Source: Mytilus trossulus
Lineage: Eukaryota
DNA length: 64,000 bases
NCBI RefSeq assembly: GCF_036588685.1
Contig: NC_086382.1
Coordinates: forward strand, 70,680,001-70,744,000
Direction: 5' to 3'
Below, piece by piece: positions 15,565 through 59,611 of the stretch. Under the pieces are notes generated by a model. It was not told the DNA's origin, ran no database searches, and saw only the letters and a list, made by a program, of their open reading frames with translations. The position numbers and the translations under genes were made by a program. Position 1 is the first letter of the stretch. Every line of letters starts with the position of its first letter.

Positions 15565-17312
15565 TTATCTCAAAGATATATTAAATTTTTCCAAGTAAGT
15601 GCCATAGGAATTACTTATAAAACCTGAAGACTTGTTACGTTTAAAGCAAATTAACAAACGTTCGTGCAGCAGTTCATCCTGTCCACCGATCAGTACTTTA
15701 CCATCCCGTCCACTATTCAGTACTTTACCATCCTGTCCATCTTTTGGTACTACTATTATACGATCCTTGTCTGTTACAATAATGTTACCATAAGTATCTG
15801 AACAGAGTCCCCATGGTCCTGATAAATCATGTGTGTATTGCCAGATCAGTTCACCTGATTCATCCACACAGTTTACTGTTTTACCATGAAAGTCACTATA
15901 GATTACTCTGTTTTTACTGTAAACAAGACTACAAAGGTCTTGTTGGTTTCCATAAACTTTTAAAACTTCTGGACATTTTCCTTCAAGTCTATAATTAAAA
16001 TGTGAAAACGACCGTATCCTACTGCCAGAGAATTATTTGAGAACGATAATCCCATGAAATAATCGGGTGAATTTTCTAACGTGTTTAAATGGATAACTTT
16101 GATAAGTGTTTCTTTCTCCATGTTGAGAATCCTAATGAGGGTCATTTCAGGATATAGTACAGCAATAGTATTGTAATTGATCTGTGTAACACTGTATGAT
16201 TTAGGTATTGCAAAATGTTTCTGTACTTCAATTTCAATCTGTTTCTGAAAGATGCCATTAGATGTAAATAGGTTAAGTTTACCAAGCCATTCAACTACTA
16301 TAACTCTTCCGCCCATCAGACAAATTATGTCACTAATCTTCTTATTTGTGTTGATCTCTATCTTTGTCTCAATATTCATGGTCATGTTGTTTATGTTGGA
16401 TTGTTCACGTGATTTTACTTGTGGGTCCGTCCTTCCACTTGTGTCTCTTTTTAGGGTTATTTCAGTTTCATCAACCATTACCTCTCCTAATGATTCTTAT
16501 TGCTCCAATTTGCTCAGCACCTTTTCTAGTTCATCATTTTGCTTCATCTTGATGTTAAATAGGTTGGTCCTGTCGTCATATTCTAGATCATCAACATATC
16601 GTTGACATTGATGTACTTGTTGTTCAATCTGATGTACGCCCAGAAATGATTGTAGTTTTGGAGTATGTATTACAACTGCATGTAAATGCTTGCTCATTTC
16701 TTTCAAGTTTTTCCTTTTCTCTTTTATTTCAGAAATAAAATCTATGGCTGCTAATTTTTCCTGATTCCAGATTCTGTCTATTTCTTGGCATAGTTTCTCC
16801 TCCAGCTTATCCAATTGTTTGTTAATTGTCTGCCTAATTTTGATCATTGATTTCTTTATGCCCTCACACTTTTGTTCTCCTGTTTGTATGTTGGTTGTTT
16901 TGTTATTTATCATTTGATTCAAGAGATCTAAGATGGAGTTGATATCTTCCTCTACGGATTCTTTGGATTTTTCAATCTTAGTATTCTCAATAATGTTAGC
17001 TAAACTTTTTATCCCAGTACAATTTGAATGATTAACAGAAATACATTCATCACAGCAAGGCATTAAATGACTGGGGCAGTATAAGTTAAGTTGTTGACCA
17101 TGTTTGTCACATTCTGTTTTGATAGTTTTGGTAGATGGTTTATAACTTGTGATACTGATTGTCTTATGATTGAGTGTTCCTTTAAATCTTTTGTGATGAC
17201 CAGAACATGTTGAGCATAGTCCTTCATCACAGTTGTAACACCAGATGTCAGCTTCAGTGTTATTATTTCCTATTTGACAAGGTCCACATAGTACCGGTTT
17301 GCTGGTTGCCAT
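15565..17312 (-). pseudogene. Intronless B-box x2 / coiled-coil / NHL-like beta-propeller (TRIM-like, no RING), disrupted
   Basis: ATG at 17312 (MATSKPVLCGPC...CYNCDEGLCSTCSGHH; CDKH...YCPSHLMPCCDECISVNHSNC), then a coiled coil and propeller motifs (GPWGLCSDTYGNIIVTD). In-frame TAA at 16497-16499 (LEQ*ESLGEVMV) and a frameshift near 15960. Confidence 0.85.
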
Positions 17313-17520
17313 GACCTTTACATAATATGAAGAACATATATAGTAATCAAATTTATTCAGTAACCTTAACATATACAATACATTTATAAATTAGCTTAAT
17401 GAATGAAGTTTGAATGCTTGAGGTTAACTGGATGATATGTCCTATACAATTTGTATATACTAAGTAAATCTTTGTATGTTCTTTCCAACCGGGCCTGAAT
17501 TAGTGGTTATATACTTTATA

Positions 17521-18956: not shown

Positions 18957-19707
18957 TATATAAAGCAAGCTAAATGAGTTATCTCTCTTTGTATACTATA
19001 TACATCTATTCATTTATTTGGAGTGGTTTTTTCAATTTAATATTGCGATATGTAAATGAATGTGAACATGTTCTTTTTATTTAAAGTCATCAATAGTATT
19101 GACAAATTAATTCTGTGTCAGAAACAAATGCTGGATTAAATATTTGATCATAATCCAAATTCAGTCCGTCTGAGAGCTGCATCAAGCCTGAATGTAGTGT
19201 CATTGAATAATAATAATTAAAAAAACCAACTAAAACATGGAGGCAAATAAAATCCCTTTACATTATAATATAAATAGATACTAAGTCTGATTGTATATTA
19301 ATGACCAATATGTATATATCTATAAACCTCTTAATTCAGACATAAGTCATTTCATCTCAGTTTTTCAACAATGGCAGATTTAACAGATAGTAAATAAAGA
19401 CATGTTTATGCCTGAATCGGGTGATCAGTTTGCATTTTAAATGACGATTATTATACTAATATATAACATGCGAGAGCTTTAAAGTCGTCAGTCAATGTCT
19501 TTAATCCCCTCCCCTGTAGTGGAAGTCAGTATTAGTTTAATGATATTTTGATCAACAATATTTTATTATTGAAGACCCTATTATGGCTTCTTGTGGATTT
19601 TTTTCTAATGTACCACATCTCTTTATATTGGTTATCTTCCTAATAATAAGGAAATAATATATTGGGTATAAATAAATGACACGAAATCAAAACTCGATCA
19701 AGAAAAC

Positions 19708-21167
19708 ACAAAATACACCTGATACAATGGAACAGTGTGTTATTGCTATTCTTCAGAACAAAATACACCTGATACAATGGAACAGTGTGTTATTGCTTTT
19801 CTTCAGCACAAAATACACCTGATACAATGGAACAGTGTGTTATTGCTATTCTTCAGCACAAAATACACCTGATACAATGGAACAGTGTGTTATTGCTATT
19901 CTTCAGCATAAAATACACCTGATACAATGGAACAGTGTGTTATTGCTATTCTTCAGAACAAAATACACCTGATACAATGGAACAGTGTTTTATTGCTATT
20001 CTTCAGAACAAAATACACCTGATACAATGGAACAGTGTTTTATTGCCATTCTTCAGAACAAAATACACCTGATACAATGGAACAGTGTGTTATTGCTATT
20101 CTTCAGAACAAAATACACCTGATACAATGGAACAGTGTGTTATTGCTATTCTTCAGCACAAAATACACCTGATACAATGGAACAGTGTGTTATTGCTATT
20201 CTTCAGCACAAAATTCTTCAGAACAAAATACACCTGATACAATGGAACAGTGTGTTATTGCTATACTTCAGAACAAAATACACCTGATACAATGGAACAG
20301 TGTGTTATTGCTATTCTTCAGCACAAAATACACCTGATACAATTGAACAGTGTGTTATTGCTATTCTTCAGAACAAAATACACCTGATACAATGGAACAG
20401 TGTGTTATTGCTATTCTTCAGAACAAAATACACCTGATACAATGGAACAGTGTGTTATTGCTATTCTTCAGCACAAAATACACCTGATACAATGGAACAG
20501 TGTTTTATTGCTATTCTTCAGCACAAAATACACCTGATACAATGGAACAGTGTTTTATTGCTATTTTTCAGCACAAAATACACCTGATACAATGGAACAG
20601 TGTGTTATTGCTATCTTTCAGCACAAAACACACCTGATACAATGGAACAGTGTGTTATTGCTATTCTTCAGCACAAAATACACCTGATACAATGGAACAG
20701 TGTGTTATTGTTATTCTTCAGCACAAAATTCTTCAGAACAAAATACACCTGATACAATGGAACAGTGTGTTATTGCTATTCTTCAGAACAAAATACACCT
20801 GATACAATGGAACAGTGTGTTATTGCTATTCTTCAGCACAAAATACACCTGATACAATGGAACAGTGTTTTATTGCTATTCTTCAGAACAAAATACACCT
20901 GATACAATGGAACAGTGTGTTATTGCTATTCTTCAGCACAAAATACACCTGATACAATGGAACAGTGTTTTATTGCTATTTTTCAGCACAAAATACACCT
21001 GATACAATGGAACAGTGTGTTATTGCTATTTTTCAGCACAAAACACACCTGATACAATGGAACAGTGTGTTCTTGCTATTCTTCAGCACAAAATACACCT
21101 GATACAATGGAACAGTGTGTTATTGCTATTCTTCAGAACAAAATACACCTGATACAATGGAACAGTG
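19708..21167. repeat. 50-bp tandem satellite, ~29 copies
   Basis: Unit AAATACACCTGATACAATGGAACAGTGTGTTATTGCTATTCTTCAG(A/C)ACA, with two 15-bp insertions. Confidence 0.97.
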
Positions 21168-23530: not shown

Positions 23531-23851
23531 TTATTTACAATCAAATCCATACAAAGTACATCCCTGATGTCTTACAGCATGGATGACGTCACTAGCTGTA
23601 ACAGTTTTCCTCTTCGCATGGTCCGTGTAAACGATGGCGTCATGTAGAACATGTTGTAAATATACACGCAAAACACCTCTTATTTCCGCGTAAACCAAGC
23701 CAGATATTCTTTTCACACCCCCTCTTCGGGCTAGACGTCTAATTGATGGTTTACTTGGTAACCAGCATGTGCATCGCTTCCTATGACGTTTATTACCCCC
23801 TAATCCTTTACCAGAATGATTTCTCCTATTAGAATCGTTGTCTGCTTCCAT
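23531..23851 (-). CDS. Divergent histone H4-like protein (106 aa)
   Basis: [38 protein letters not shown] and TLYGF. About 50/73 identities to canonical H4 over residues 30-102. Intact intronless ORF, TATA-like element near 23965 and AATAAA near 23275 on the minus strand. Confidence 0.85.
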
Positions 23852-23992
23852 CTCAGAAGATCTCAGAATAAATCCATGTCAAAATAAGTTGCTAAAATTA
23901 ATTAAAGTTCCTGGTTTCAATTTGTGATAACATTCAACTTATACATTGCGTTTAAATTTAGATTTTTATAATAAGGACATTTAACAAAATGT

Positions 23993-38475: not shown

Positions 38476-38867
38476 CTACGTGCTCCAACTGTATGACCAG
38501 TTAGTGGTAGGTGTCCCTGAATTTTGTCCACTGGTCCAAACTCTTCTTCTTATGTTCATATTTCTACCCGCGTTCCTATTCCAACTTTGTGGAAGATTCC
38601 AATTCCTACTTGTTCGTGGCTGAGAATTTTGATTGTTTGTTTGCTGACTTCTCCTATTGTTTCCTGATGTCCAGCTCCACATGACTCTACCATTGGGTTT
38701 ATTCTCTCTGGTGGTAGTTATACGTCTGGTTTGGTCAGGTTTGGTACGTTGATTTTCATTGACAATCTTCCAGGGACTATATTTCCAATCGGTTCCTCCG
38801 TTTACGTTACTTCTGCTAGTGACTTTTGTTGGTGTATTCGGGACATTTCGTCCTCCTGTAGCGTGAT
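38476..38867 (-). CDS. CAP/SCP protein, last exon (low-complexity W/R/N/S/T tail)
   Basis: ttctgtattgtag acceptor, phase 1 matching the previous exon. Open frame DHATGGRNVP...NWSYSWST*. Confidence 0.8.
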
Positions 38868-39049: not shown

Positions 39050-41068
39050 AGTGAATGGTGTGTCTCAAAAATAAAATGATATATCTCAAGAAACTAAATG
39101 GTTCATCTCAAGACGCTAATTGATATATTTCGTCACCAAATGATAAAGACACGAAATTGCATATCTCAAGAACCAAATGATATGCATCTCAAGACACCAA
39201 ATGATAAATCACAAGAAACCAAATGGCATATCTCAAGAAACCTAACGGTATATCTCAAGAAACCAAACGGTATATATCAAGAAACCTAACGGTATATCTC
39301 AAGAAACCTAACGGTATATCTCAAGAAACCAAGCGGTATATATCAAGAAACCTAACGGTATATATCAAGAAACCAAACGAAATATCTCAAGAAACCAAAC
39401 ATGTATATCTCAAGAAACCAAACGGTATATCTCAAGAAACCAAACGGTATATCTCAAGAAACCAAACGGTATATCTCAAGAAACCAAACGGTATATCTCA
39501 AGAAACCAAACGAAATATCTCAAGAAACCAAACATGTATATCTCAAGAAACCAAACGGTATATCTCAAGAAACCAAACGGTATATATCAAGAAACCAAAC
39601 GGTATATATCAAGAAACCAAACGAAATATCTCAAGAAACCAAACATGTATATCTCAAGAAACCAAACGGTATATCTCAAGAAACCAAACGGTATATCTCA
39701 AGAAACCTAACGGTATATATCAAGAAACCAGACGGTATATCTCAAGAAACCTAACGGTATATATCAAGAAACCAAACGGTATATCTCAAGAAACCAAACG
39801 GTATATATCAAGAAACCTAACGGTATATCTCAAGAAACCAAATGGTATATCGCAAGAAACCAAACTGTGCATCTCAAGAAACCAAACATGTATATCTCAA
39901 GATACCAAACGTTAAATCTCACGAAACCACTTGATTTATCTAAAGAACCATAATGGTACACCTTAGGAATCCAAATGGTTTATCTGAAGAAACCGATCGA
40001 AATATCTCAAGAAACTTGATAGTACTAGTATGCTTTGAGATATTCATGGACATATATCGCACGAAACCAATTGATACATCCGATGAAACCATATGACATA
40101 TCTAACGTAAACAAATGGTATATCTCAAAAAAACAAATTGTACATCCCAAACAACTTAACGGTTACGGTATATCTCGAGACACCAAATGATATATCTTAA
40201 GAAATCAAATGGTACATCCCAAGAAATCAAATCGTACATCCCGAGAAATATAATGGTACATCTCAATATCAAATGGTACATCTCCATATCAAATGATATG
40301 TCTCAATATCAAATGGTACATCCCAAGAAATCAAATGATACATCTCTAAATCAAAATGGTACGTCTCGATTTCAAATGGTACATCCCGAAAAATCAAATG
40401 GTACATCCCGAAAAATCAAATGGTACATCCCGAAGAATCAAATGGTAAATCCCGAAAATCAAATGTTATATCTTAAGAATATAAATGATACATCCCGACA
40501 TATCAAATGGTACATCTCAAGTAACGCAATGGTATATCTCAAGAAATCAGATGATATTATATTTAAATCAAAATCAAAACGATTGGTTTATCGCAAGTCA
40601 CCAAATGATATATCTCAAGAAATCAAATGTTACATCTCAGGTAACGATATATCAAGACACCAAATGTTACATCTCAAGAAATCAAATGTTACATCTCAGG
40701 TAACGAAATGGTTTATATCAACAAACCAAATGATAAATCTCAAGAAACACAATTTATGATATATCTCAAGAAACAAAATTTATGATATATCTCAAGAAAC
40801 AAAATAGTTTATCTTGAGAAACCAATTGTACATCGCGAGAAACCAAATAGTACATCGCGAGAAACTAAATAGTACATCGCGAGAAACCAAATAGTACATC
40901 GCGAGAAACCAAATAGTACATCGCGAGAAACCAAATAGTACATCGCGAGAAACCAAATAGTACATCGCGAGAAACCAAATAGGACATCGTGAGAAACCAA
41001 AAAGTACATCGCGAGAAACCAAATAGTACATCGCGAGAAACCAAATAGTGCATCGTAAGAACCCAAAA
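39050..41068. repeat. 22-bp satellite with three sub-arrays in a CAP intron
   Basis: AAACCAAACGGTATATCTCAAG (39220-39900), degenerate AAATCAAATGGTACATCCCG (39900-40800) and AAACCAAATAGTACATCGCGAG (40820-41065). Confidence 0.95.
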
Positions 41069-41214: not shown

Positions 41215-41306
41215 CTGAACATAGACCTGCATCACACTGCTGTCCTGAGCGACATCTAGAACATGCCTGTCCATTTATATATGGCTCCCTGTTGTTAAAA
41301 TTTCCT
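41215..41306 (-). CDS. CAP/SCP protein, exon 4 (Cys-rich hinge)
   Basis: GNFNNREPYINGQACSRCRSGQQCDAGLCS, with AG/GT sites in phases 2 and 1. Confidence 0.9.
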
Positions 41307-42696: not shown

Positions 42697-42809
42697 ATAA
42701 AGATGACAATAGAAACACGAACAAAAGCATACTAAATACATGTATTTCATAGGTAAGTTAGAGTTAGCGTTACATATATATTAGTAGGATACTTGTATTT
42801 CATACTTAC

Positions 42810-42916
42810 GGTGGGTCATAAAAGCATACTAAATACATGTATTTCATAGGGAACTTTGAGTTCGCGTTACATATCTGTACACCACAACCCAGTTGTTTAC
42901 TGTCCGCCCACACCAT
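42810..42916 (-). CDS. CAP/SCP protein, exon 3
   Basis: MVWADSKQLGCG...LVCFYDPP (CAP1 and CAP2 motifs), with cattgtag and gtaagt sites. Confidence 0.92.
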
Positions 42917-43302
42917 CTACAATGTAAAAAAAAATTAAAAAAATAATATATGCAGTATTTTCAAAATCATCTTTGATGTAAAATCACAAAAGTTGTTTGA
43001 ACCTGGACCACATAATTTTATCTCATTAATATTCGTTTCCTCTGAGACGTAGTAATTAAATTAGTCTAACTATAATTTGTATTTTAGACAACATGTACAC
43101 TTGAACTCATCTTCAGTGCAATGAGAATTCTCCTGTCAATCAAAAAGTATATGACAGGAAGTTATAAAAACATCAAAGCCTAGCAATCATATACTATGCG
43201 TAAACATTGTCAAAAATAAAAACAAAATTTATTCCTACAAATTTGGAAATTTTCAAGAAAACCGATAGTGAATTACCTGTTTCCTTTTAGATATAAAATT
43301 CA

Positions 43303-43430
43303 TGCGTCCGAAACGCTTTTCTGGATTTAACTTTATCAGGAATACTCAAAGCCGAGTATTTGAAAGTCAAGAATCAAATCAGTGGAAGAGCTATATGACA
43401 AAAGAAACATAAACAAACAGCCAAATCTAT
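43303..43430 (-). mobile_element. Decayed hammerhead-containing repeat, second family
   Basis: Minus strand reads TTC-CTGATAA-AGTTAAATCCA-GAAA-AGCGTT-TC-GGACGCA. This is a type I hammerhead layout with core mutations. Confidence 0.45.
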
Positions 43431-43514: not shown

Positions 43515-44045
43515 CTCCGAATAAACATGTGTCATCGGAGAAGTGAAACAACCCAACGAGTAAATTAACAGCAAAAGGTCAAACAAGTTACAAAAGTGTA
43601 ATTCGAATAAACACGCGGCTTTGGAGCATTGAAACAAACCTTAGAGTAAACAGCGAAAGTTAAAAAAAAAAAATCCGAATATAAACACGCGGCTATGGAA
43701 AAGTGAAACAAACCTTAGAGCAAAAAGCAAAAATTTCTTACAAGCTAATCCGAATAAACACGCCGCATTGGAGCAGTGAGATATTTTCTTTAGAGTAAAC
43801 AGCAAAAGTTCAAAGACATTTAAATAAAAGCGGAACAATGAAAAGTCAACAACCCAAGAGTTAATAGCAAACGTTCAAAGAGTTCGAAAAAACCCACCGC
43901 AACAATGGAGCAGTCAAGCAAACCTTAGAATGAACATTAAAGGTTTAAACAAAATTATCCGAATAAACACGCTGCAGTGGAGTAGTGAAACAAACACAAT
44001 AGTGAACATCATAGTTAAATAAATTAAACACGCGGCAATGGAGTG
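43515..44045. repeat. Degenerate ~75-85-bp tandem repeat
   Basis: Recurrent CGAATAAACACGCGGC...GGAGCAGTGAAACAAACCTTAGAG. Confidence 0.75.
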
Positions 44046-44352
44046 ATATTAGTGTGTGGAATAAAAGGATTGTATTATTTGGGTTAGATTTGACTTATGG
44101 CCAACCTCAATGTTTGCGTCGCAATACAACATTCCAAAAGAATTTAGCCTATTCATTTTTGATCAAGTGCTACGCAGTAATACAATTCAATCTTTAATAC
44201 TTGCAATAAACTTAAAATATCGTCAAAATCAACAAAGTCGCACAAATTAAACGCATCTAATTCTGAAATGTATTGCATAATTTCTAGAGCATTTACTAAT
44301 AAAGGATGCATACTCAGGCTCTGAGATACATACTATGTCACATTATTTTACA

Positions 44353-44608
44353 TATTGACAATTACCTGTGTATAATGTTCTGTATAATGACAATTACCTG
44401 TGTATAATGTCCTGTTTAATGACAATTACCTGTGTATAATGTCCTGTATAATGACAATTACCTGTGTATAATGTCCTGTATAATGACAATTACCTGTGTA
44501 TAATGTCCTGTATATTGACAATTACCTGTGTATAATGTCCTGTATATTGACAATTACCTGTGTATAATGTCCTGTATAATGACAATTACCTGTGTATAAT
44601 GTCCTGTA
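44353..44608. repeat. 32-bp minisatellite made of the exon 2 / intron boundary, 8 copies
   Basis: ATTACCTGTG at 44361, 44393, 44425, 44457, 44489, 44521, 44553 and 44585. Confidence 0.95.
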
Positions 44609-44805
44609 GACATACTAAAGCCACTCCCTGGGGAATAGTCTCTCTTCTCATCAAACCACATTTTAATACCCCGCTTTATCAATACATTTATATCTTCACC
44701 AACACTTTGCATTGCCAGGTTTTCTCCTCTACCGTTCTGCTGATGGCTGTTAGAACATCTGGACGCCCATGCAGTAGCCTCTTGTTCAAGAGTTGTACTC
44801 CAGAC
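44590..44805 (-). CDS. CAP/SCP protein, exon 2
   Basis: VWSTTLEQEATAWASRC...GENLA...WFDEK...GHYTQ; 216 nt, phase 0/0. Confidence 0.92.
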
Positions 44806-45476: not shown

Positions 45477-45611
45477 CAATTTCTGCATGTTGGCTGCATT
45501 TTCACTTTTTCTATATCGGTTATGTTCATTTAAAAGCAATGAGCTATATATTGAACCCAAACATGTTCCAAACAATGGTAACAGTACCACGAGGAATGAT
45601 AATACAACCAT
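45477..45611 (-). CDS. CAP/SCP protein, first coding exon (signal peptide)
   Basis: MVVLSFLVVLLPLFGTCLG signal peptide, LNEHNRYR (CAP3) and AANMQKL, then a gtaagt donor. An acceptor just upstream and a GTGAGT donor at ~46230 suggest a 5'UTR exon. Confidence 0.9.
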
Positions 45612-47256
45612 TATCTGAAAAAGAAGCCATCACAATTATCCAATACATTGTATTTGATTAGTACACGGATACACCACTCACACTACTGTTTGCTATGTTC
45701 AGTGGACGAACAGACGGACTTCAAATGATCGGATGCACAGTACGAAATGCAGAATGCCCCTATAATTGGGACATACTAACAAATCTGTGTTTCGTACGTG
45801 ATCCTTATGTGATATCTTTAAATAGACTACGACGACTTAAAATAGGAGAGCTATTTTTAAAACTATTTGACCAGAAAAAACAACAACCCGAGATTACCAC
45901 ATTCAGTCAAAATTTAAGCATTTATATGGAACAGAATAACAACAATTTATCTTAATATGATGTTTAAAGTTAATTCATAAAACAATATGAAGAAAAAGGA
46001 AAGAGCTTTAGCCATTATTCTATATCCCAATATCTTAAGTCGATGCTCAGAGCTGTATTTTTATTGTCATAGGGTGGAACTTTTTACGCTGAACCGTCCA
46101 GCTACTGGTCAATACATCTTTTATGTATGTTAATTTCCTTTGTATTCTATGTAATGCCATTTCCTTTTCATCTTACCCCAACCTCTTCACCCAATGTTCT
46201 GATAAGATTTTAAATAATAACTATACTCACATGAATAAATAGAATTTCTGAATAATTCCGGTATGTTAAAAAATAGTTACTGAAATATTTATAGAAATTT
46301 CAGTTATTCCGCGAAATTATCAAAACCAATTACACCGTAACTATACGAGTTTACTAAACACTCTTTCCTTTTATCCACAAATCATTACTAATTAAAGCAG
46401 AATAATGCGTAATATCAAGTATTATCAATCGGAAAAAAGTGACAAAAACAGTCCTCTGCTGTCACTTTCCCGGGAGTGACGCACAAATAAGATAACACTA
46501 ATAATTTATACAAAATTAAATTAAGTCGCTTTGGTCTGTCATGTTTATAGTTTTTTTAAATTTTGATGTGACACTTGTATACAGTAAACACGAGCTATTA
46601 CACAATTGTTTTTGTAGATAAGATATATGTATTGAGGCACTGCAATGTTTTTAGATTGAAGACGTATCTAAGTATTTTCCTATTGATGCTTAGATATGAC
46701 AATTCATATTTTTCCAATTTTCTTTTAGATTTCTTCTTGTTATAACATTCAAAGTTTCTGCCGTTCTCATGTAAATGTTTGTTGAAATGACAGTTTATAA
46801 AATACTATACATCACATTCTGTGTATTTGTATAAAATGGAACAACATTAAACAAGACAGATTTGAACACGTGTTTTATACAACTATATCGTTACAAGGAA
46901 GCTACAATTAACAAATCATTAAACATGTTCAAGACGGGTGGTATTAGACCTTGGTATAACTTTGTTTGCATTTAAACAGAATAAAAAATATCATATTGCC
47001 TACAGAACATATACTACATATGTTTACAGTAATGATGTATTGGCAAATCAAACGGGACATGCATAGTCACAAACACGTTTCAGGAGGGATATTTGTTTCA
47101 CCGAGACGTTAAAAAACACCATCATAAACCCGCATTTGATATGAAATATAAAATAAAATGTATGTGTGCATGTATTTTCTTGTGAATTCATTCTTTATAA
47201 ATCCAAAGAACCCCCGAGAGACGCGAAACTTAATATATGGTCGTTGAATACATATG

Positions 47257-48967: not shown

Positions 48968-51291
48968 CACTGGTATTAAAGAGATAATAGTAACTGCAAT
49001 TACGATTATCCCAATATGGCGACGACAGATATAGGTAAAATCTTTACAGTCATTTAACTCAAATGTAGCATTTTTTTGTCACTAGTTACTCAGCTGCAAG
49101 GTTTTTCTATACCATTACATCATATTTGAATCGTAACGGTGCACTTTTATTGTCTAAGCGCTTTGAAAATTGCCGTTGAAAAATTCGGGATGATAATCGT
49201 AACTCGGATAAAAAGATAATCGTAATTATGGTATTAAAAAATGCGAAGATAATCGTAACTGGATAGTGTTTTATTGATATTGACACTAAAAACGTATATC
49301 TGATAGCACATGATGAAATTACGGTGATGAACTAATCACGTTTCAACATCTTATGACATATCTTTTTGTGGATATATTATTAATGGTTCTAATGAAAACA
49401 GCTACATACTATTATATCATAAAATTGGAAGGGTGAACAAGTTTTAAGAAATTTGGATATGGGAAAAACACGAACTATGTTAAAATACAGAAAACTCCCA
49501 AGAACTAGGAATGTCACAAAATATGGGAATGAGCGATGAGGCAATTTTATAGGAAGTTATGATATATGGCAATAATTGTCAGGGGAAACGCATGTGTCAC
49601 CCTACATCAGATTTGTGATTAATAAGATTGAGAACGGAAATGGGGAATGTATCACAGAGAACACAACCTGACCATACAAAAAACAACAACAGAAGGTCAC
49701 CAATAGGTCTTCAATATCGCGAGAAATTCCCGCACCCGGAGGCGTCCTTCAGCTGGCCCTAAGACTGTTAGAGAACATTGATTTATCATGAATAAAAACA
49801 TAGTAAATATAATAATAATTGTTTTAAATCATTTAATGCAGGTGGCTATGTGTGATATTTCTTCCCCCGGGAAGCGACTGTTGGTTCAATTCTAGTCCAT
49901 ACCCGTTATGCCATAATGAATGTTTTCTTTAAAAAATAGTTTTTGGTTTTGGAAGATTTAATAGTTTTTAATCAGCTGAACGTAAGTTATAGTTTTGATT
50001 ATCAGTAAAATGAAAATTTTCTTCTAAATAATTAGGAACCATGCCATTAATTGCTTTAAATATAAGTATTGCCTTTTGGTATTGAATTTGTTTTTCCACA
50101 TCTAACCAGTGTAAACTATTCAACAATAAACTGGATGATGTTTGAAATATTGATATCTAAACTGTTTCCAGTTAAACAAAGCCTTTGTTTTGAACCAATA
50201 ATCATTGATTTACACTTTTTGGCATTTAATTTCATACAATTTTGCAAACACCAGTTTTCAATAACACGAATATCATTTTGAAGGTTATAGAAGCTAACTG
50301 AATTGCATCATTACCTCTACAATGTAATGTAGAATCATCTGCATATAAATCTGTTGATGAATGTTCTATATTGAGTGGTAACTCATTGATATATAAAATA
50401 AATAACCAAGGGTCCAGGATAGAACCTTGTGGTACACCAGTTTTTATGCATTTAGTATTAGACATGACGTTATTGACCTTAACTTGTTGGCTTCGTTCAA
50501 ACAAGTATGAATTTAACCAGTCTAGTGTACTATTTGAAACATTATAATATTCCAGTTTTTTCAATAAAATTATATGATTAACCAGATCAAAAGCTATCTT
50601 TAAATCTAAAAATATAGCTCCGTTTATCTCTCCATTATTTATATTTGCTAACCATTCATCTACTAATTTAGTAAGTGGAGTAGTACACGAATGTTTAGGT
50701 CTGAAACCTGGCTGTGTAGTATTAAGAAGGTCATTGCTATTTAAAAATATATGCCAGGAATCCATAGCTTATTAGTTCCTCTTAAAATATTATGTTTCTT
50801 TGCTTAAAAAATGTTAAATCTAATTCCATGTAAAGACTGCACAAAAAAATACTTGTAAAGATCAAACACATTTTTTTTAAAGTGGCTGGGACAAGAAATC
50901 ACGGTTTTTCATTTTCCGTTAATGTTATTCATTAACTGTACATTTGCATTTAAATAAACACAATACCATTAAAATGCTGAAAGACACATTTAACTTTTCA
51001 GTTACTATTATCCGATAAAGAAATTACGACTATCAAACAAGAAAAATTCCATAGAGTTACGATTATCATCCCCAATTTTTCAACGGCAATTTCCAAAGCG
51101 CTTTGACAATTCCAGTGCACCGTTACGATTCAAATATGATGCAATGGTATAGAAAAACCTTGCAGCTGAGTAACTAGTGACAAAAACATGCTACATTTGA
51201 GTTAAATGACTGTAAAGATTTTACCTATATCTGCCGTCGCCATATTGGGATAATCGTAATTGCAGTTACTATTATCTCTTTTATACCAGTG
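48968..51291. mobile_element. 2.3-kb non-autonomous Chapaev/CMC-like TIR element
   Basis: ~238-bp TIRs (48968-49205 and 51054-51291), termini CACTGG...CCAGTG and a 4-bp TSD ATAG. Confidence 0.88.
49860..50765 (-). mobile_element. Decayed CR1/L2-type LINE RT fragment inside the TIR element
   Basis: QPGFRPKHSC, IFLDLKIAFDLVNH, GVPQGSIL and YADD motifs, with frameshifts downstream. Confidence 0.9.
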
Positions 51292-53749: not shown

Positions 53750-54904
53750 TTAATGTGTACAAAGCACAACTAGCACTGTAATTGTGGCAATTATAACTAT
53801 TACAGACGTTATCCAAAACAATACCAAATCAAACGACGAAATAACATCACCCCACGTGATCTCTTGTTTACTTTCTGTTTCATTTTTATAATTCGATTCA
53901 ATTTTCTTCACATTTCGGCATTTCATTAGCTTGATTATGTTCTTTGGAACATCGTCTTTACGATGGTGAAACCGAAGTTCTATAATCGTACAGCACACAA
54001 CAAAAGTTCCCATGCCTAGCTGGAACATTAGATAATATCCCAATATTGATCCAGATGTTTTGGGAAGCTCGGAACTGACAATTGTAAGAAAAACGGCAAA
54101 AGAAAGAAACACTGTAATGCAATATCCCATTTTTTCACCGCTGTCAGCCGGAAGTGCAAAAGTAAACACATTTAATACACCGAGTAGAATGATTGGAATG
54201 ATAATATTCATTAAATAATAGGTTGAATTTCTTTTCAAGTTTAATGTAAATATAACCCTAGATTCGGACGACATAACGTCCTCTCGTGCAGCTGTTGACA
54301 CTACTGACCATTCAGCATTATTTTCTAAGCTATTTAAAATAATTCCATTATTCCACAGAGTTACCATCACATCTGCATTACTACTTGACCACACCACAAA
54401 CACAATGTCACAAGATTGTCGGTCATAAGGAAAATATGTAATATCGATTGTACATTTGGATTCAAAAACTTCAAACGGCATCCAGGTAACTTGTCCATTA
54501 CTTCCTACCTTAGCTTTTATAAAACTGCTTCCAAGTTCCCTCAATTTTGTAAATCCATTTTGTAATGTTATATCAGGTATCCAAATATCTGCTTGTGGAA
54601 CATAAACGTGACCTAATTCGCCAAAGTCAGCTGAAGTCCAATTCAAATACTCATCTATCCATCCAATATTTAAATAACCGGTTGTTGTCAGTTTCTGTTT
54701 TAGTTCGTCCAATTCGTTTATTCCCACAAGGTAAAGATCTAAATCTAAGATCATAGGTTGTCGTTGATCCATATTTGGTCGGACTTGCTTTTTATAATCG
54801 TTTGTTGTAAACAATTGTTTGATAAGATTTTTAACATTATCGCCACTCTGTCCTTCAATCTTTACAAACAGTAGTAGAAAAACGAAATACCCCAAACCCA
54901 ACAT
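53750..54904 (-). CDS. Intronless nicotinic acetylcholine receptor-like Cys-loop channel subunit (non-alpha, 384 aa)
   Basis: Signal peptide, WIPDI, Cys-loop CTIDITYFPYDRQSC, four TMs and LPADSGEK before M2. No vicinal Cys in loop C. Confidence 0.95.
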   Translation of the reverse strand: MLGLGYFVFLLLFVKIEGQSGDNVKNLIKQLFTTNDYKKQVRPNMDQRQPMILDLDLYLVGINELDELKQKLTTTGYLNIGWIDEYLNWTSADFGELGHVYVPQADIWIPDITLQNGFTKLRELGSSFIKAKVGSNGQVTWMPFEVFESKCTIDITYFPYDRQSCDIVFVVWSSSNADVMVTLWNNGIILNSLENNAEWSVVSTAAREDVMSSESRVIFTLNLKRNSTYYLMNIIIPIILLGVLNVFTFALPADSGEKMGYCITVFLSFAVFLTIVSSELPKTSGSILGYYLMFQLGMGTFVVCCTIIELRFHHRKDDVPKNIIKLMKCRNVKKIESNYKNETESKQEITWGDVISSFDLVLFWITSVIVIIATITVLVVLCTH

Positions 54905-56324
54905 TTTACCACTCCATTTTTATGTTCAAATGAATATTCGCCTATATTGCATCTAATTTCCAATATATTTAATCCAAAAAAAATAGTTTTAATTAGACAC
55001 GTAGTTGCTGCATTTAAAATTGTATATCCAATTTACGTGTACCATTATTCTCTCACAAAATTTAAAATGCATGCGTATTTATTACATAATGATTCTTATG
55101 GGAATTCATATTTGACATGTATCTATGAGTATAAAATCACAATACTAACAATAAAATTGAAATGCATATCAAGTATTACTTTTTTTATCTATTTTGTGAG
55201 AAAAATCTATTATGAAAACTTTATTATTTTATGTTAACAAACCCAAAACTCACTGTGCAATCGATGTAAACAAATTATCTAATGGTTTGCATGATCGATT
55301 GTGAATGGAAGAGTTAAGGTATCAAAATGAATACACGGAGTTGAAAGCCAATTTGAGTCGATCAAAAAGTATAATGGTCACGGAGAAGCTTTGAGAGAAT
55401 CCGTGTTTCATTCTTTTTGATATTTAAAAGACGACGAATATATTAATAAAGGAATTCAAATGATTGTATTCCTAACCATCTGTGGCGTAAGTATCGTAGT
55501 TCTTTAAAATCATAAAGATATTTTTTTACACTATTAAATCTCCAAAAAACTTCAGGCAGCATTAGTCTACCAGCAGTCAACATAAAAATAAAAAAAATAT
55601 AGAAAACAGTATAACAAAAAAACTTTATCTACCGTACGTTAATTAGCTGAATTTGATGCCGGACTTTAACACATATCTAAAACAAGAATGTGTCCTCAGT
55701 ACACGAATGTCCCACTCGCACTTTCATTTTCTATGTTCAGTGGACCGTGACATTGGGATAAAACTCTAATTTGGCATTACAATTAGAAAGATCATATCAT
55801 AGGGAACATGTGTACTAAGTTTGAAGTTGATTGGACTCCAACTTCATCAAAAATTACCTTGACCAAAAACCTGAAGCGGGACAGACGGACGAACATACTA
55901 AGAGATGTATGTGGTATGAATTTTACAGTGACTTGACTGATAGTGTTGCTCTCCACCACTTGCAACTCCTCATTCAAAATTTTGTCCATAAATGCAATTT
56001 GTTTTATTAAACTAAATGATTCAACTGGTCAGAATATTTAACAAATTGTTCAGTCAAAATGTGAAAGTGCAAGGAGATAACATAAAGCATACTTACAATC
56101 CTATAAGACTTTAACTCCACTTAAATGATGTTGTGACAAAATTAGTCACATTATGTTTTATTTTATCCCCTTGCACCTTCATGACTCGGTTGTGGTTTTC
56201 TACAGCAGTTAGTTCAAACTTCTGACCATTTACACTGTAATATGACACGCAACAATGCAATGTTCAAGTGAAGTGGATCAAAATAATTATATGGCCACCA
56301 TATGATAATTTATAAAAGAAAAAC

Positions 56325-57976: not shown

Positions 57977-58272
57977 TCATATAAATTTGAATTCAATTAA
58001 ATATTCCGGATACGCTTGTGAATCTTTAAATATGACAAAGATTTTCGGGTTTTTAATGTCATCTACAACGCTGTCACATAATATATGGTTTTCATGTTGT
58101 CCAAATTTTGATGGTGGATCAATAATACCTGGACGCCCCTGTGCAAAATCTCCGACAAGCACCTTGCATAGATAGACTCTCTTGTGTCCATTTGAATCTT
58201 GTCTACTATATACATCTTGCGCAGAATACGATAACTCTTCATCAAAGTAAACACCGTTCCCATATACAGTAG
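57977..58272 (-). CDS. PARP catalytic domain (mono-ART type), last exon
   Basis: ATVYGNGVYF...YLCKVLVGDF...DSVVD...IFVIFKDSQAYPEYLIEF; aattacag acceptor, phase 1. Confidence 0.92.
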
Positions 58273-59611
58273 CTGTAATTATACAGTCTGTTTGTAGATA
58301 TCATTGAGTACTTGGCATTTGCAAACTTGTACTCATTATACAGTTAAAAAAGTAATTTTTTTAAAGGTACCTATAAATTAACATTATTTAGATTATTCAA
58401 ATGAAGATTTTCTGATGGCATATTCATAAATTATTTAAAGACGATTTTCTAATGGCATATTCACACACTATTTGAAGACGATTTTCCAATTGCATACTTA
58501 TACATAATCTAAAAATGTAAAGAAACTAGGCTTTAATCAATGTTTGCTTACGAACAGAACAGAGATAAAGTTGACATATTGACCTGATATGTTTGCATAT
58601 CCTTTTTTGGCATGTCAATCTCTGTACCATTGATTGTAGTAATAGTTTTTTTTTTCTCGAAAAAAATGTTTTATAGCTTTGAAGTGGAAATGCTTCATTT
58701 AATCCTTTCATTGGAAGGTTGGTATTGAAGTTGGTTTAAAATGCCATTAATACATTTGTCTGACAAGCATTCGAAATTTGACATATATATGCTAAGGCAT
58801 AATAAATTATACTGATCTTTTAAGAAATTATAAATTCTATTGTGAGAAATATAACATTCGCAAATGATTGATATTATGAATAAATCTCTTACTCTTTAGT
58901 TTTGGTCTTTTCATATGTATTTCATTGCGAAGCTTGGAATACGAACTAAAAGACATGATTATTTTGCTTTTGGTTATTAAAAGAGGGACGAAAGATACCA
59001 AAGGAACAGCCAAACTCATAAATCTAAAACAAACTGACAACGCCATGGCAAAAAATGAAAAAGACAAACAGAAAAACGGCTTTCTTTCAGCTTTGCATGA
59101 ACTTTTTTGCAACTGCGAGTACTCACGGATCTGTATCGTGGGTTATATGTCTTTTGGTGTTTGTGTGTTTGTATTTTGTTCGTCGTTCTTTGTTATCGAT
59201 CTGATTAGTTCAGCCCTGTTCAATTATTTTTTTTCGGATAGCACTTATGTTATGCTATTACAATACTTTTTCCTAGAAAAACAGGAGGATGAGGCGTCCT
59301 CAAACACGTTTAGCTTCGTCACCTTCTGGATGAGTAGACTTTATTCAGAAGGCAGTTTTTTGCTTTATATCATATTTGATGTTAGTTTATTGTTTTCAAA
59401 ATAAATGAGATTGCTAGATTTCTGATATGAATTGTTTTAAGATTTTTTGTAGCTTGATTTTCGGCTTGTGTATTGGTCATTGTTGAAGGCCGTACGCTGA
59501 CCGTAAGGCGCCAAAATTCTACTCTCAAATCCTCTTATCTTTGCGATAATGATGAAGATGGTTTATAGCTTCAATTGTATCATGTTATTTTGGCTTTATG
59601 AGTTCACTAAC

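What the first reader, a model, noticed from the sequence alone, without database searches (positions are those of the whole stretch)
44353..44608. A VNTR that multiplies a 5' splice site eight times
Seen: the 32-bp unit is the last 18 nt of CAP exon 2 (encoding TGHYTQ) plus the first 14 nt of the intron, so there are eight CAG|GTAATT donors in tandem. Using the second donor shifts the frame. Any later donor includes an in-frame TAA (VIVIIQDIIHR*). Only the first donor is productive. Inference: copy number could tune productive splicing against NMD, acting as a heritable expression dial.
Basis: partly seen in the sequence, partly recalled or inferred. Interest (0 to 1): 0.7.

Follow-up and report, generated by a model that had tools for sequence, protein, structure and literature searches.

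The report
Repeated splice donor in mussel gene
In a mussel gene for a secreted CAP-family protein, a 32-base piece covering the end of an exon and its splice signal is repeated eight times; only the first copy is seen in use, and the same oddity is already described in several human genes, where copy number did not act as a splicing dial.

Summary
Eight 32-bp units (44352-44607, minus strand) each carry the last 18 nt of the second coding exon of a Mytilus CAP/SCP gene plus 14 nt of intron, giving eight identical CAG|GTAATT donors. Only donor 1 (44590) gives the 313-aa protein; donors 2-8 give premature stops. The array is real and seems variable: DNA runs from two studies show multi-unit alleles, while public read-through ORFs ending VIVNM*/VIANM* imply one-unit alleles elsewhere. 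The dial idea is unsupported. Both RNA-type runs laid (2 of 6 listed) give one contig each, joined at donor 1, with no depth over the array. Their array genotype is unknown, and contigs or NMD would hide rare forms. This architecture is known: F7, CBS, IFI6, LMNB2, PDGF, ABCA7. In F7 minigenes, 1-12 units did not change donor choice (PMC1557585). In ABCA7, second-donor use was about 2% and independent of length (PMC5954066). This scan has noted the same kind on other DNA (LIG1, CUL2, EMILIN1, TOR; unchecked notes). Verdict: a new member of a known kind, most likely a tolerated slippage repeat.

The parts
44352..44607 (-). 32-bp x 8 minisatellite; each unit = last 18 nt of coding exon 2 + first 14 nt of the intron; unit 1 straddles the real junction (44608-44353 is an equivalent register, one shared T)
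   Evidence: TRF; units listed; three variable positions (5, 29, 32 of the unit)
44584..44592 (-). Authentic 5' splice site (donor 1, last exonic base 44590), CAG|GTAATT
   Evidence: RNA-type contigs of X21 and X22 join 44590 to 42916, CT..AC on the plus strand; the model equals P0006 with 0 differences
44360..44560 (-). Seven identical downstream donor copies (44558, 44526, 44494, 44462, 44430, 44398, 44366); use of any gives a premature stop
   Evidence: zero RNA-contig depth in the bins 44365-44586
44554..44556 (-). TAA within the second donor copy; stop codon of the read-through frame (VIVIIQDIIHR*)
44590..44805 (-). Second coding exon (216 nt, phase 0-0), core of the CAP domain, VWSTT...TGHYTQ
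   Evidence: Pfam PF00188, E 4.8e-07; covered by RNA contigs
45477..45614 (-). First coding exon (ATG at 45611; hydrophobic N-terminus, signal peptide inferred by eye)
   Evidence: RNA joint 44803/45475 (cut +2) in X21
46231..46260 (-). 3' end of an upstream non-coding exon, donor CAT|GTGAGT at 46231 (its start not mapped)
   Evidence: loose end of the X22 contig behind 45614 matches 46231 onward with one mismatch
42810..42916 (-). Third coding exon (107 nt), MVWADS...YDPP
41215..41306 (-). Fourth coding exon (92 nt), cysteine-rich segment
   Evidence: loose ends of X21 and X22 before 42810 resemble its start (compared by eye)
38476..38867 (-). Last coding exon (392 nt to the stop), tail without a Pfam match
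   Evidence: protein identical to P0006

Best explanation
A young, length-variable minisatellite that arose by slippage or unequal exchange across the exon/intron junction of a Mytilus CAP/SCP (GLIPR1/PI16-like) gene. The ancestral state is one copy. A 32-nt stretch holding the donor was duplicated, and further rounds of expansion spread a point change among the units (inferred from the unit variants). The allele is tolerated because the spliceosome takes the most upstream of a run of identical donors, here the one giving a 216-nt exon, so the mRNA and the 313-aa protein are unchanged. The seven extra donors are pseudo-sites: usable in principle, used little or not at all. Any small leak, most likely to donor 2, makes stop-bearing transcripts that are noise and does not scale with copy number. 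Shown: anatomy, frames, donor 1 use in two RNA-type runs, multi-unit alleles in two DNA runs. Inferred: direction of change, first-site priority in mussels, neutrality.
For: Gene model with donor 1 is identical to a RefSeq protein (P0006, 0 of 313 differences), and the orthologues P0001-P0005 run straight from GHYTQ into M/LVWADSK. RNA-type runs X21 and X22 (2 studies, 2 of the 6 RNA-guess runs listed) each give one contig joining 44590 to 42916, with no other joint at this intron and zero depth over 44365-44586. P0008 ends TGHYTQ-VIVNM*, which is what the exon followed directly by the flank after donor 8 reads; after donors 1-7 the frame reads differently. Four 31-mers of that one-unit form are absent from the 8-unit haplotype. 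Tandem arrays cover 12% of the window (23 arrays, 7814 bp), so slippage is common here. In F7, constructs with 1-6 and 8-12 units always used only the first site (PMC1557585). In ABCA7, one-unit retention was about 2% and not affected by VNTR size (PMC5954066).
Against: The RNA contigs differ from the window at 6-7 letters in this exon, so they come from other alleles whose unit number is unknown and could be one; they then do not test donor competition at all. Contigs drop rare forms, and NMD would deplete exactly the forms sought. RNA status of those runs is a guess by the tool, though the joints at GT-AG ends fit spliced RNA. IFI6 and CBS use one or two downstream pseudo-sites (introduction of PMC1557585), and CBS copy number is reported as associated with lower enzyme activity (paper title in reference lists; paper not read). 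The F7 rule was shown in mammalian cells, not molluscs.
Confidence: 0.78

Rival explanations
1. One reading: each added unit diverts a share of splicing to a stop-bearing donor, NMD removes those transcripts, and productive mRNA falls with copy number.
For: [quoted passage not shown] All give stops more than 55 nt before the last junction. Copy number appears to vary. Downstream pseudo-sites are used in IFI6 and CBS and in ABCA7, where cycloheximide raises stop-bearing forms.
Against: No downstream-donor contig in 2 of 2 RNA-type runs (weak). F7 choice was unchanged by unit number. In ABCA7 the authors found no effect of length on retention or NMD and ruled this route out as the cause of lower expression. 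Where pseudo-sites are used, it is the nearest one or two, so the leak would saturate at 2-3 units and not grade to 8 (inference).
Confidence: 0.08
2. Indirect effect: the array changes splicing or expression in another way, for example by promoting skipping of a neighbouring exon or by binding splicing or transcription factors. Skipping the 216-nt exon keeps the frame and removes the CAP core.
For: In ABCA7, length correlated with skipping of the next exon and with lower expression. In F7, exon skipping rose as the first usable site moved away. The exon here is symmetric, so a skip would escape NMD.
Against: No skip joint in 2 of 2 RNA-type runs. The ABCA7 effects involve arrays of up to kilobases; this one is 256 bp. 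No stable fold over the array (z = -1.11, 11 of 100 shuffles fold as well).
Confidence: 0.1
3. Assembly artefact, or unit number misjudged by the assembler.
For: Short-read contigs cannot span the array. The summed depth over it in X1 (156) and X2 (23) is below a simulation of two 8-unit alleles (261-275 and 52-55).
Against: Units differ at three positions in a nested pattern. Both DNA runs, from two studies, pile up depth on the array (403 and 76 at 44559 against roughly 35-60 and 5-15 in unique flanks). A second-haplotype contig in X1 runs 63 nt into the array without gaps with 8 differences, where one- and two-unit alleles would give 33 and 13. The depth shortfall fits one long and one shorter allele. 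The exact number 8 rests on the window alone.
Confidence: 0.04

Closest known systems
Human F7 intron 7 37-bp VNTR (PMC1557585; I read the abstract, introduction, most of the results and the discussion)
   Same: First unit spans the exon/intron junction; 5-9 identical donors in tandem (8 here); polymorphic; only the most upstream site is seen in use.
   Different: F7 unit holds 4 exonic nt, this one 18. In F7 two pseudo-sites would keep an open frame; here none does. Mammal versus bivalve. F7 was tested by minigenes; this locus was not.
Human ABCA7 intron 18 25-bp VNTR (PMC5954066; passages and one results section read)
   Different: ABCA7 alleles run from 300 bp to over 10 kb. Retention (about 2%) did not vary with length; the length effect was on skipping of the next exon and on expression. 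No expression data exist here.
Human CBS intron 13 31-bp VNTR, c.1444_1467+7(16_21) (seen through PMC1557585 introduction, PMC2630376 and PMC1395315 passages; the primary paper was seen only as a title)
   Same: Closest in geometry: 31-bp unit made mostly of exon end (24 nt) plus intron start (7 nt); variable copy number; single-base variants among units.
   Different: 15-21 units; two pseudo-sites reported in use; reported association with enzyme activity. Here no pseudo-site use was seen.
IFI6 (6-16), LMNB2 and PDGF junction-spanning minisatellites (as summarised in the introduction of PMC1557585; primary papers not read)
   Same: Donor reiterated through the start of the intron.
   Different: IFI6 uses the two nearest pseudo-sites; LMNB2 and PDGF use only the authentic site; units of 81-100 bp in the last two.
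CAP/SCP superfamily (Pfam PF00188), Mytilus GLIPR1-like/PI16-like protein
   Same: Host gene: PF00188 over residues 27-148, E 9.6e-23; identical to P0006 (M. trossulus label), 13-15 differences from P0001 and P0003.
   Different: Nothing unusual in the protein; the 'venom protein-like' names are source annotations, not tested functions.

Membership tests
Junction-spanning donor minisatellites (F7/CBS/IFI6 type) | Head-to-tail tandem array whose first unit spans a real exon/intron boundary | tested here: met
   Unit 1 = 44607-44576; junction at 44590 used in RNA-type contigs
Junction-spanning donor minisatellites (F7/CBS/IFI6 type) | Donor sequence repeated intact in the intronic units | tested here: met
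   8 of 8 units carry CAG|GTAATTGT
Junction-spanning donor minisatellites (F7/CBS/IFI6 type) | Copy number is polymorphic (VNTR) | tested here: met
   Indirect: one-unit read-through ORFs P0007 and P0008, 8 units in the window, a second haplotype of at least about 3 units and a +3-nt variant in X1. Whether the variation is within or between Mytilus species is not resolved.
Junction-spanning donor minisatellites (F7/CBS/IFI6 type) | Most upstream donor dominates | tested here: inconclusive
   2 of 2 RNA-type contigs use donor 1, but their array genotype is unknown and rare forms are dropped
Junction-spanning donor minisatellites (F7/CBS/IFI6 type) | Pseudo-sites become active when the first site is lost | not testable with these tools
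   Needs minigenes
Splicing-coupled NMD regulators / splicing-QTL tandem repeats | A stop-bearing isoform is actually made and rises when NMD is blocked | tested here: inconclusive
   None seen; no NMD-inhibited or raw-read data were available
Splicing-coupled NMD regulators / splicing-QTL tandem repeats | Isoform share or expression tracks repeat number | not testable with these tools
   No matched genotype and RNA
Splicing-coupled NMD regulators / splicing-QTL tandem repeats | The unproductive site is conserved across relatives | tested here: not met
   One-unit alleles lack the extra donors altogether; intactness among units is within chance, P = 0.36
CAP/SCP superfamily (host gene) | PF00188 above the curated cut-off | tested here: met
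   81.7 bits against 21.1

The most novel reading that the evidence does not exclude
Unit number at this locus segregates from 1 to 8 or more among blue mussels and measurably tunes the output of a secreted CAP protein by diverting splicing to stop-bearing donors. That would be a natural allelic series showing that first-site priority is leaky and graded in an invertebrate, unlike F7 and ABCA7.
Probability: 0.08. Interest if true: 0.55.

Novelty: new member of a known kind. Interest (0 to 1): 0.2.

Why it matters
The architecture and the dial idea are both in print for human genes, and the direct tests I read were negative for a copy-number effect on downstream-donor use. The modest value here is practical. 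This locus appears to have one-copy and many-copy alleles in a genus with abundant sequence data, so it offers a natural test of whether the 'first donor wins' rule, shown in mammalian cells, also holds in a mollusc, and of how such arrays are tolerated. If a graded effect were found it would be a clear case of a repeat acting as a splicing rheostat, but nothing seen here points that way.

Tried and rejected
No whole genome is held for this window, so paralogues and a genome-wide rate could not be examined; within the window tblastn finds no second CAP gene. JGI metagenome scans: the exact 27-nt junction gave 0 matches; a degenerate pattern gave 4 loci (L001-L004), none a mussel orthologue: L003 shares only 25-27 nt at 63% GC, and L004 and L002 give only distant protein matches. 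A search for truncated or read-through proteins of 45-146 aa found no candidate, and exact look-ups of two read-through peptides found 0 of 2 in the collection; weak evidence, as only representatives or exact sequences are searched. The run search listed no holder on record as RNA; 6 of 24 rows were RNA guesses, of which 2 were laid. Only 4 of 24 runs could be laid (one call). Unit number from contig depth was tried and set aside as a measure: the first simulation placed long contigs without gaps and is unreliable for short alleles; the second is rough. A hairpin masking donors 2-8 was rejected (z = -1.11). Micro-exons inside the units (an AG lies 14 nt before each donor) were rejected: 18-nt introns are too short to splice (general knowledge). 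Selection on the extra donors was not detected. Literature: two broad searches returned 0 papers; a Mytilus + minisatellite + intron + splice search listed 2 papers, neither on this locus by title and abstract start. PMC10078293 (passages) covers motifs up to 20 bp and gave nothing specific; PMC6627357 and PMC6660495 (passages) only restate F7 and ABCA7. No supplements were read. Earlier notes of this scan hold nothing for this place or protein.

Full report
Observation. Tandem Repeats Finder reports a 32-bp array at 44352-44608, 8.0 copies, 97% matches. On the minus strand each unit is 18 nt that encode TGHYTQ followed by 14 nt that begin GTAATT. Eight donors CAG|GTAATTGT follow at 32-nt steps from 44590 to 44366. 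Units vary at only three positions (5, 29, 32), none in the donor. The window is rich in such repeats: 23 merged arrays cover 12% of it. This is the only one of the 23 with a strong donor word in every unit.

Host gene. A five-exon coding model on the minus strand (45611-45477, 44805-44590, 42916-42810, 41306-41215, 38867-38476) gives a 313-aa protein (one search had off-by-one boundaries and is superseded). It has a CAP domain at residues 27-148 and is identical to P0006, labelled Mytilus trossulus by its source, and 13-15 residues from the M. galloprovincialis and M. edulis proteins.

Frames. Donor 1 is the only productive one. Donor 2 gives 151 aa with the stop 126 nt before the last junction; donors 3-8 give 128 aa ending VIVIIQDIIHR*. 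All cut the CAP domain after residue 117. The TAA needs no special explanation: it is part of the GTAA of donor 2, placed in frame because 32 is 2 mod 3 at a phase-0 intron. Skipping the 216-nt exon would keep the frame.

Is it real and variable? Of 24 runs listed, four were laid. Both DNA runs, from two studies, pile up contig depth on the array (403 in X1 and 76 in X2 at 44559). X1 may be the source of the window and is not independent; X2 is. In X1 a contig at single-haplotype depth runs from the exon 63 nt into the array with 8 differences and no gap; one- and two-unit alleles would give 33 and 13 differences, so that haplotype has about three units or more. X1 also shows a 3-nt insertion in one unit that is not listed for X2. 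No one-unit deletion joint was listed in either run, which does not prove absence. Separately, two short public ORFs read exon 2 into the intron and end VIVNM* (P0008, 1 contig) and VIANM* (P0007, 2 contigs). VIVNM* is what follows only donor 8, the last unit and its unique flank, and the one-unit form needs four 31-mers that the 8-unit haplotype lacks. I read these as one-unit alleles, with the caveat that I could not see their DNA and that collapse of some other allele by an assembler is not fully excluded. They carry the PGRG variant found in the M. edulis and M. galloprovincialis proteins, so the array may be lineage-biased. Summed depth fell below a simulation of two 8-unit alleles and near one long plus one short allele, but this is too rough to count units.

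Which donor is used? Runs X21 and X22 (RNA by the tool's guess, two studies) each give one contig that covers the exon to 44590 and joins 42916, with no depth over 44365-44586 and no other joint at this intron. This confirms donor 1 as the real site. It is a weak test of the dial: the contigs differ from the window at 6-7 letters in the exon, so their unit number is unknown; contigs drop rare forms; and NMD would remove them.

Mechanism. The best reading is a slippage-born minisatellite that happened to include a donor and is tolerated because the most upstream of identical donors is taken. The donor is a good U1 match, 9 of 11 against 6-9 of 11 for the gene's other donors. No RNA fold masks the copies. 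The extra donors show no sign of being kept by selection (P = 0.36), and alleles without them appear to exist.

What is known. PMC1557585 describes the class: minisatellites whose first unit spans an exon/intron boundary in F7, IFI6, CBS, LMNB2 and PDGF. [quoted passage not shown] IFI6 and CBS use one or two of the nearest pseudo-sites. CBS copy number is reported as associated with lower activity (title only), which keeps a small effect possible. Earlier notes of this scan describe the same architecture in LIG1, CUL2, EMILIN1 and TOR genes of other animals (unchecked AI notes, seen after I had reached the F7 comparison). My searches found no paper on this mussel locus.

Verdict. Observation confirmed; interpretation partly supported (frames and variability yes, dial no). 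New member of a known kind. Interest 0.2. The novel reading, a graded splicing/NMD rheostat, is not excluded (probability about 0.08) and can be tested directly because one-unit and many-unit alleles appear to exist.

Noticed in passing
window 42723-42777 (minus strand): A 55-nt copy of part of coding exon 3 (42874-42820; 51 of 55 identical, reads ICNANSNLPMKYMYLVCF) lies just inside the next intron; it lacks the exon's donor. A second local duplication at an exon end of the same gene.
   Followed up: partly
window 19707-21167: A 50-bp x about 29 array whose unit holds both a CAG|GTGTAT word on the minus strand and a TTCTTCAG word on the plus strand; no host exon was identified, and it fails the 8-of-11 U1 match per unit.
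   Followed up: partly
window 39161-41067: A 1.9-kb array of 22-bp units fills most of the last intron of the CAP gene.
   Followed up: no
window 43590-44020: A degenerate repeat of about 70-90 bp, several copies at 77-90% identity, in the same intron as the donor array.
   Followed up: no
window 43277 (minus strand): A ninth, lone CAG|GTAATT in the same intron, at the edge of a very high-copy dispersed repeat (43290-43350; summed depth above 100,000 in X1).
   Followed up: no
window 23531-23878 (minus strand): A divergent, intronless histone H4-like ORF (histone-fold Pfam hits; H4 likeness by recall) with an altered N-terminal tail; a variant or a decayed copy.
   Followed up: no
window 53750-54919 (minus strand): An intronless 389-aa ligand-gated ion channel subunit (PF02931 and PF02932).
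   Followed up: no
window 15565-17390 (minus strand): A B-box protein gene in three adjacent or overlapping ORFs (16497-17390, 15960-16496, 15565-16032), apparently broken by a stop and a frameshift.
   Followed up: no
window 42947-43348: One X1 contig at single-haplotype depth skips about 400 nt here, a possible intronic indel polymorphism (only 22 letters on the short side).
   Followed up: no
window 50232-50768 and 57977-58300 (minus strand): A reverse-transcriptase fragment (PF00078) and a PARP catalytic-domain exon (PF00644).
   Followed up: no
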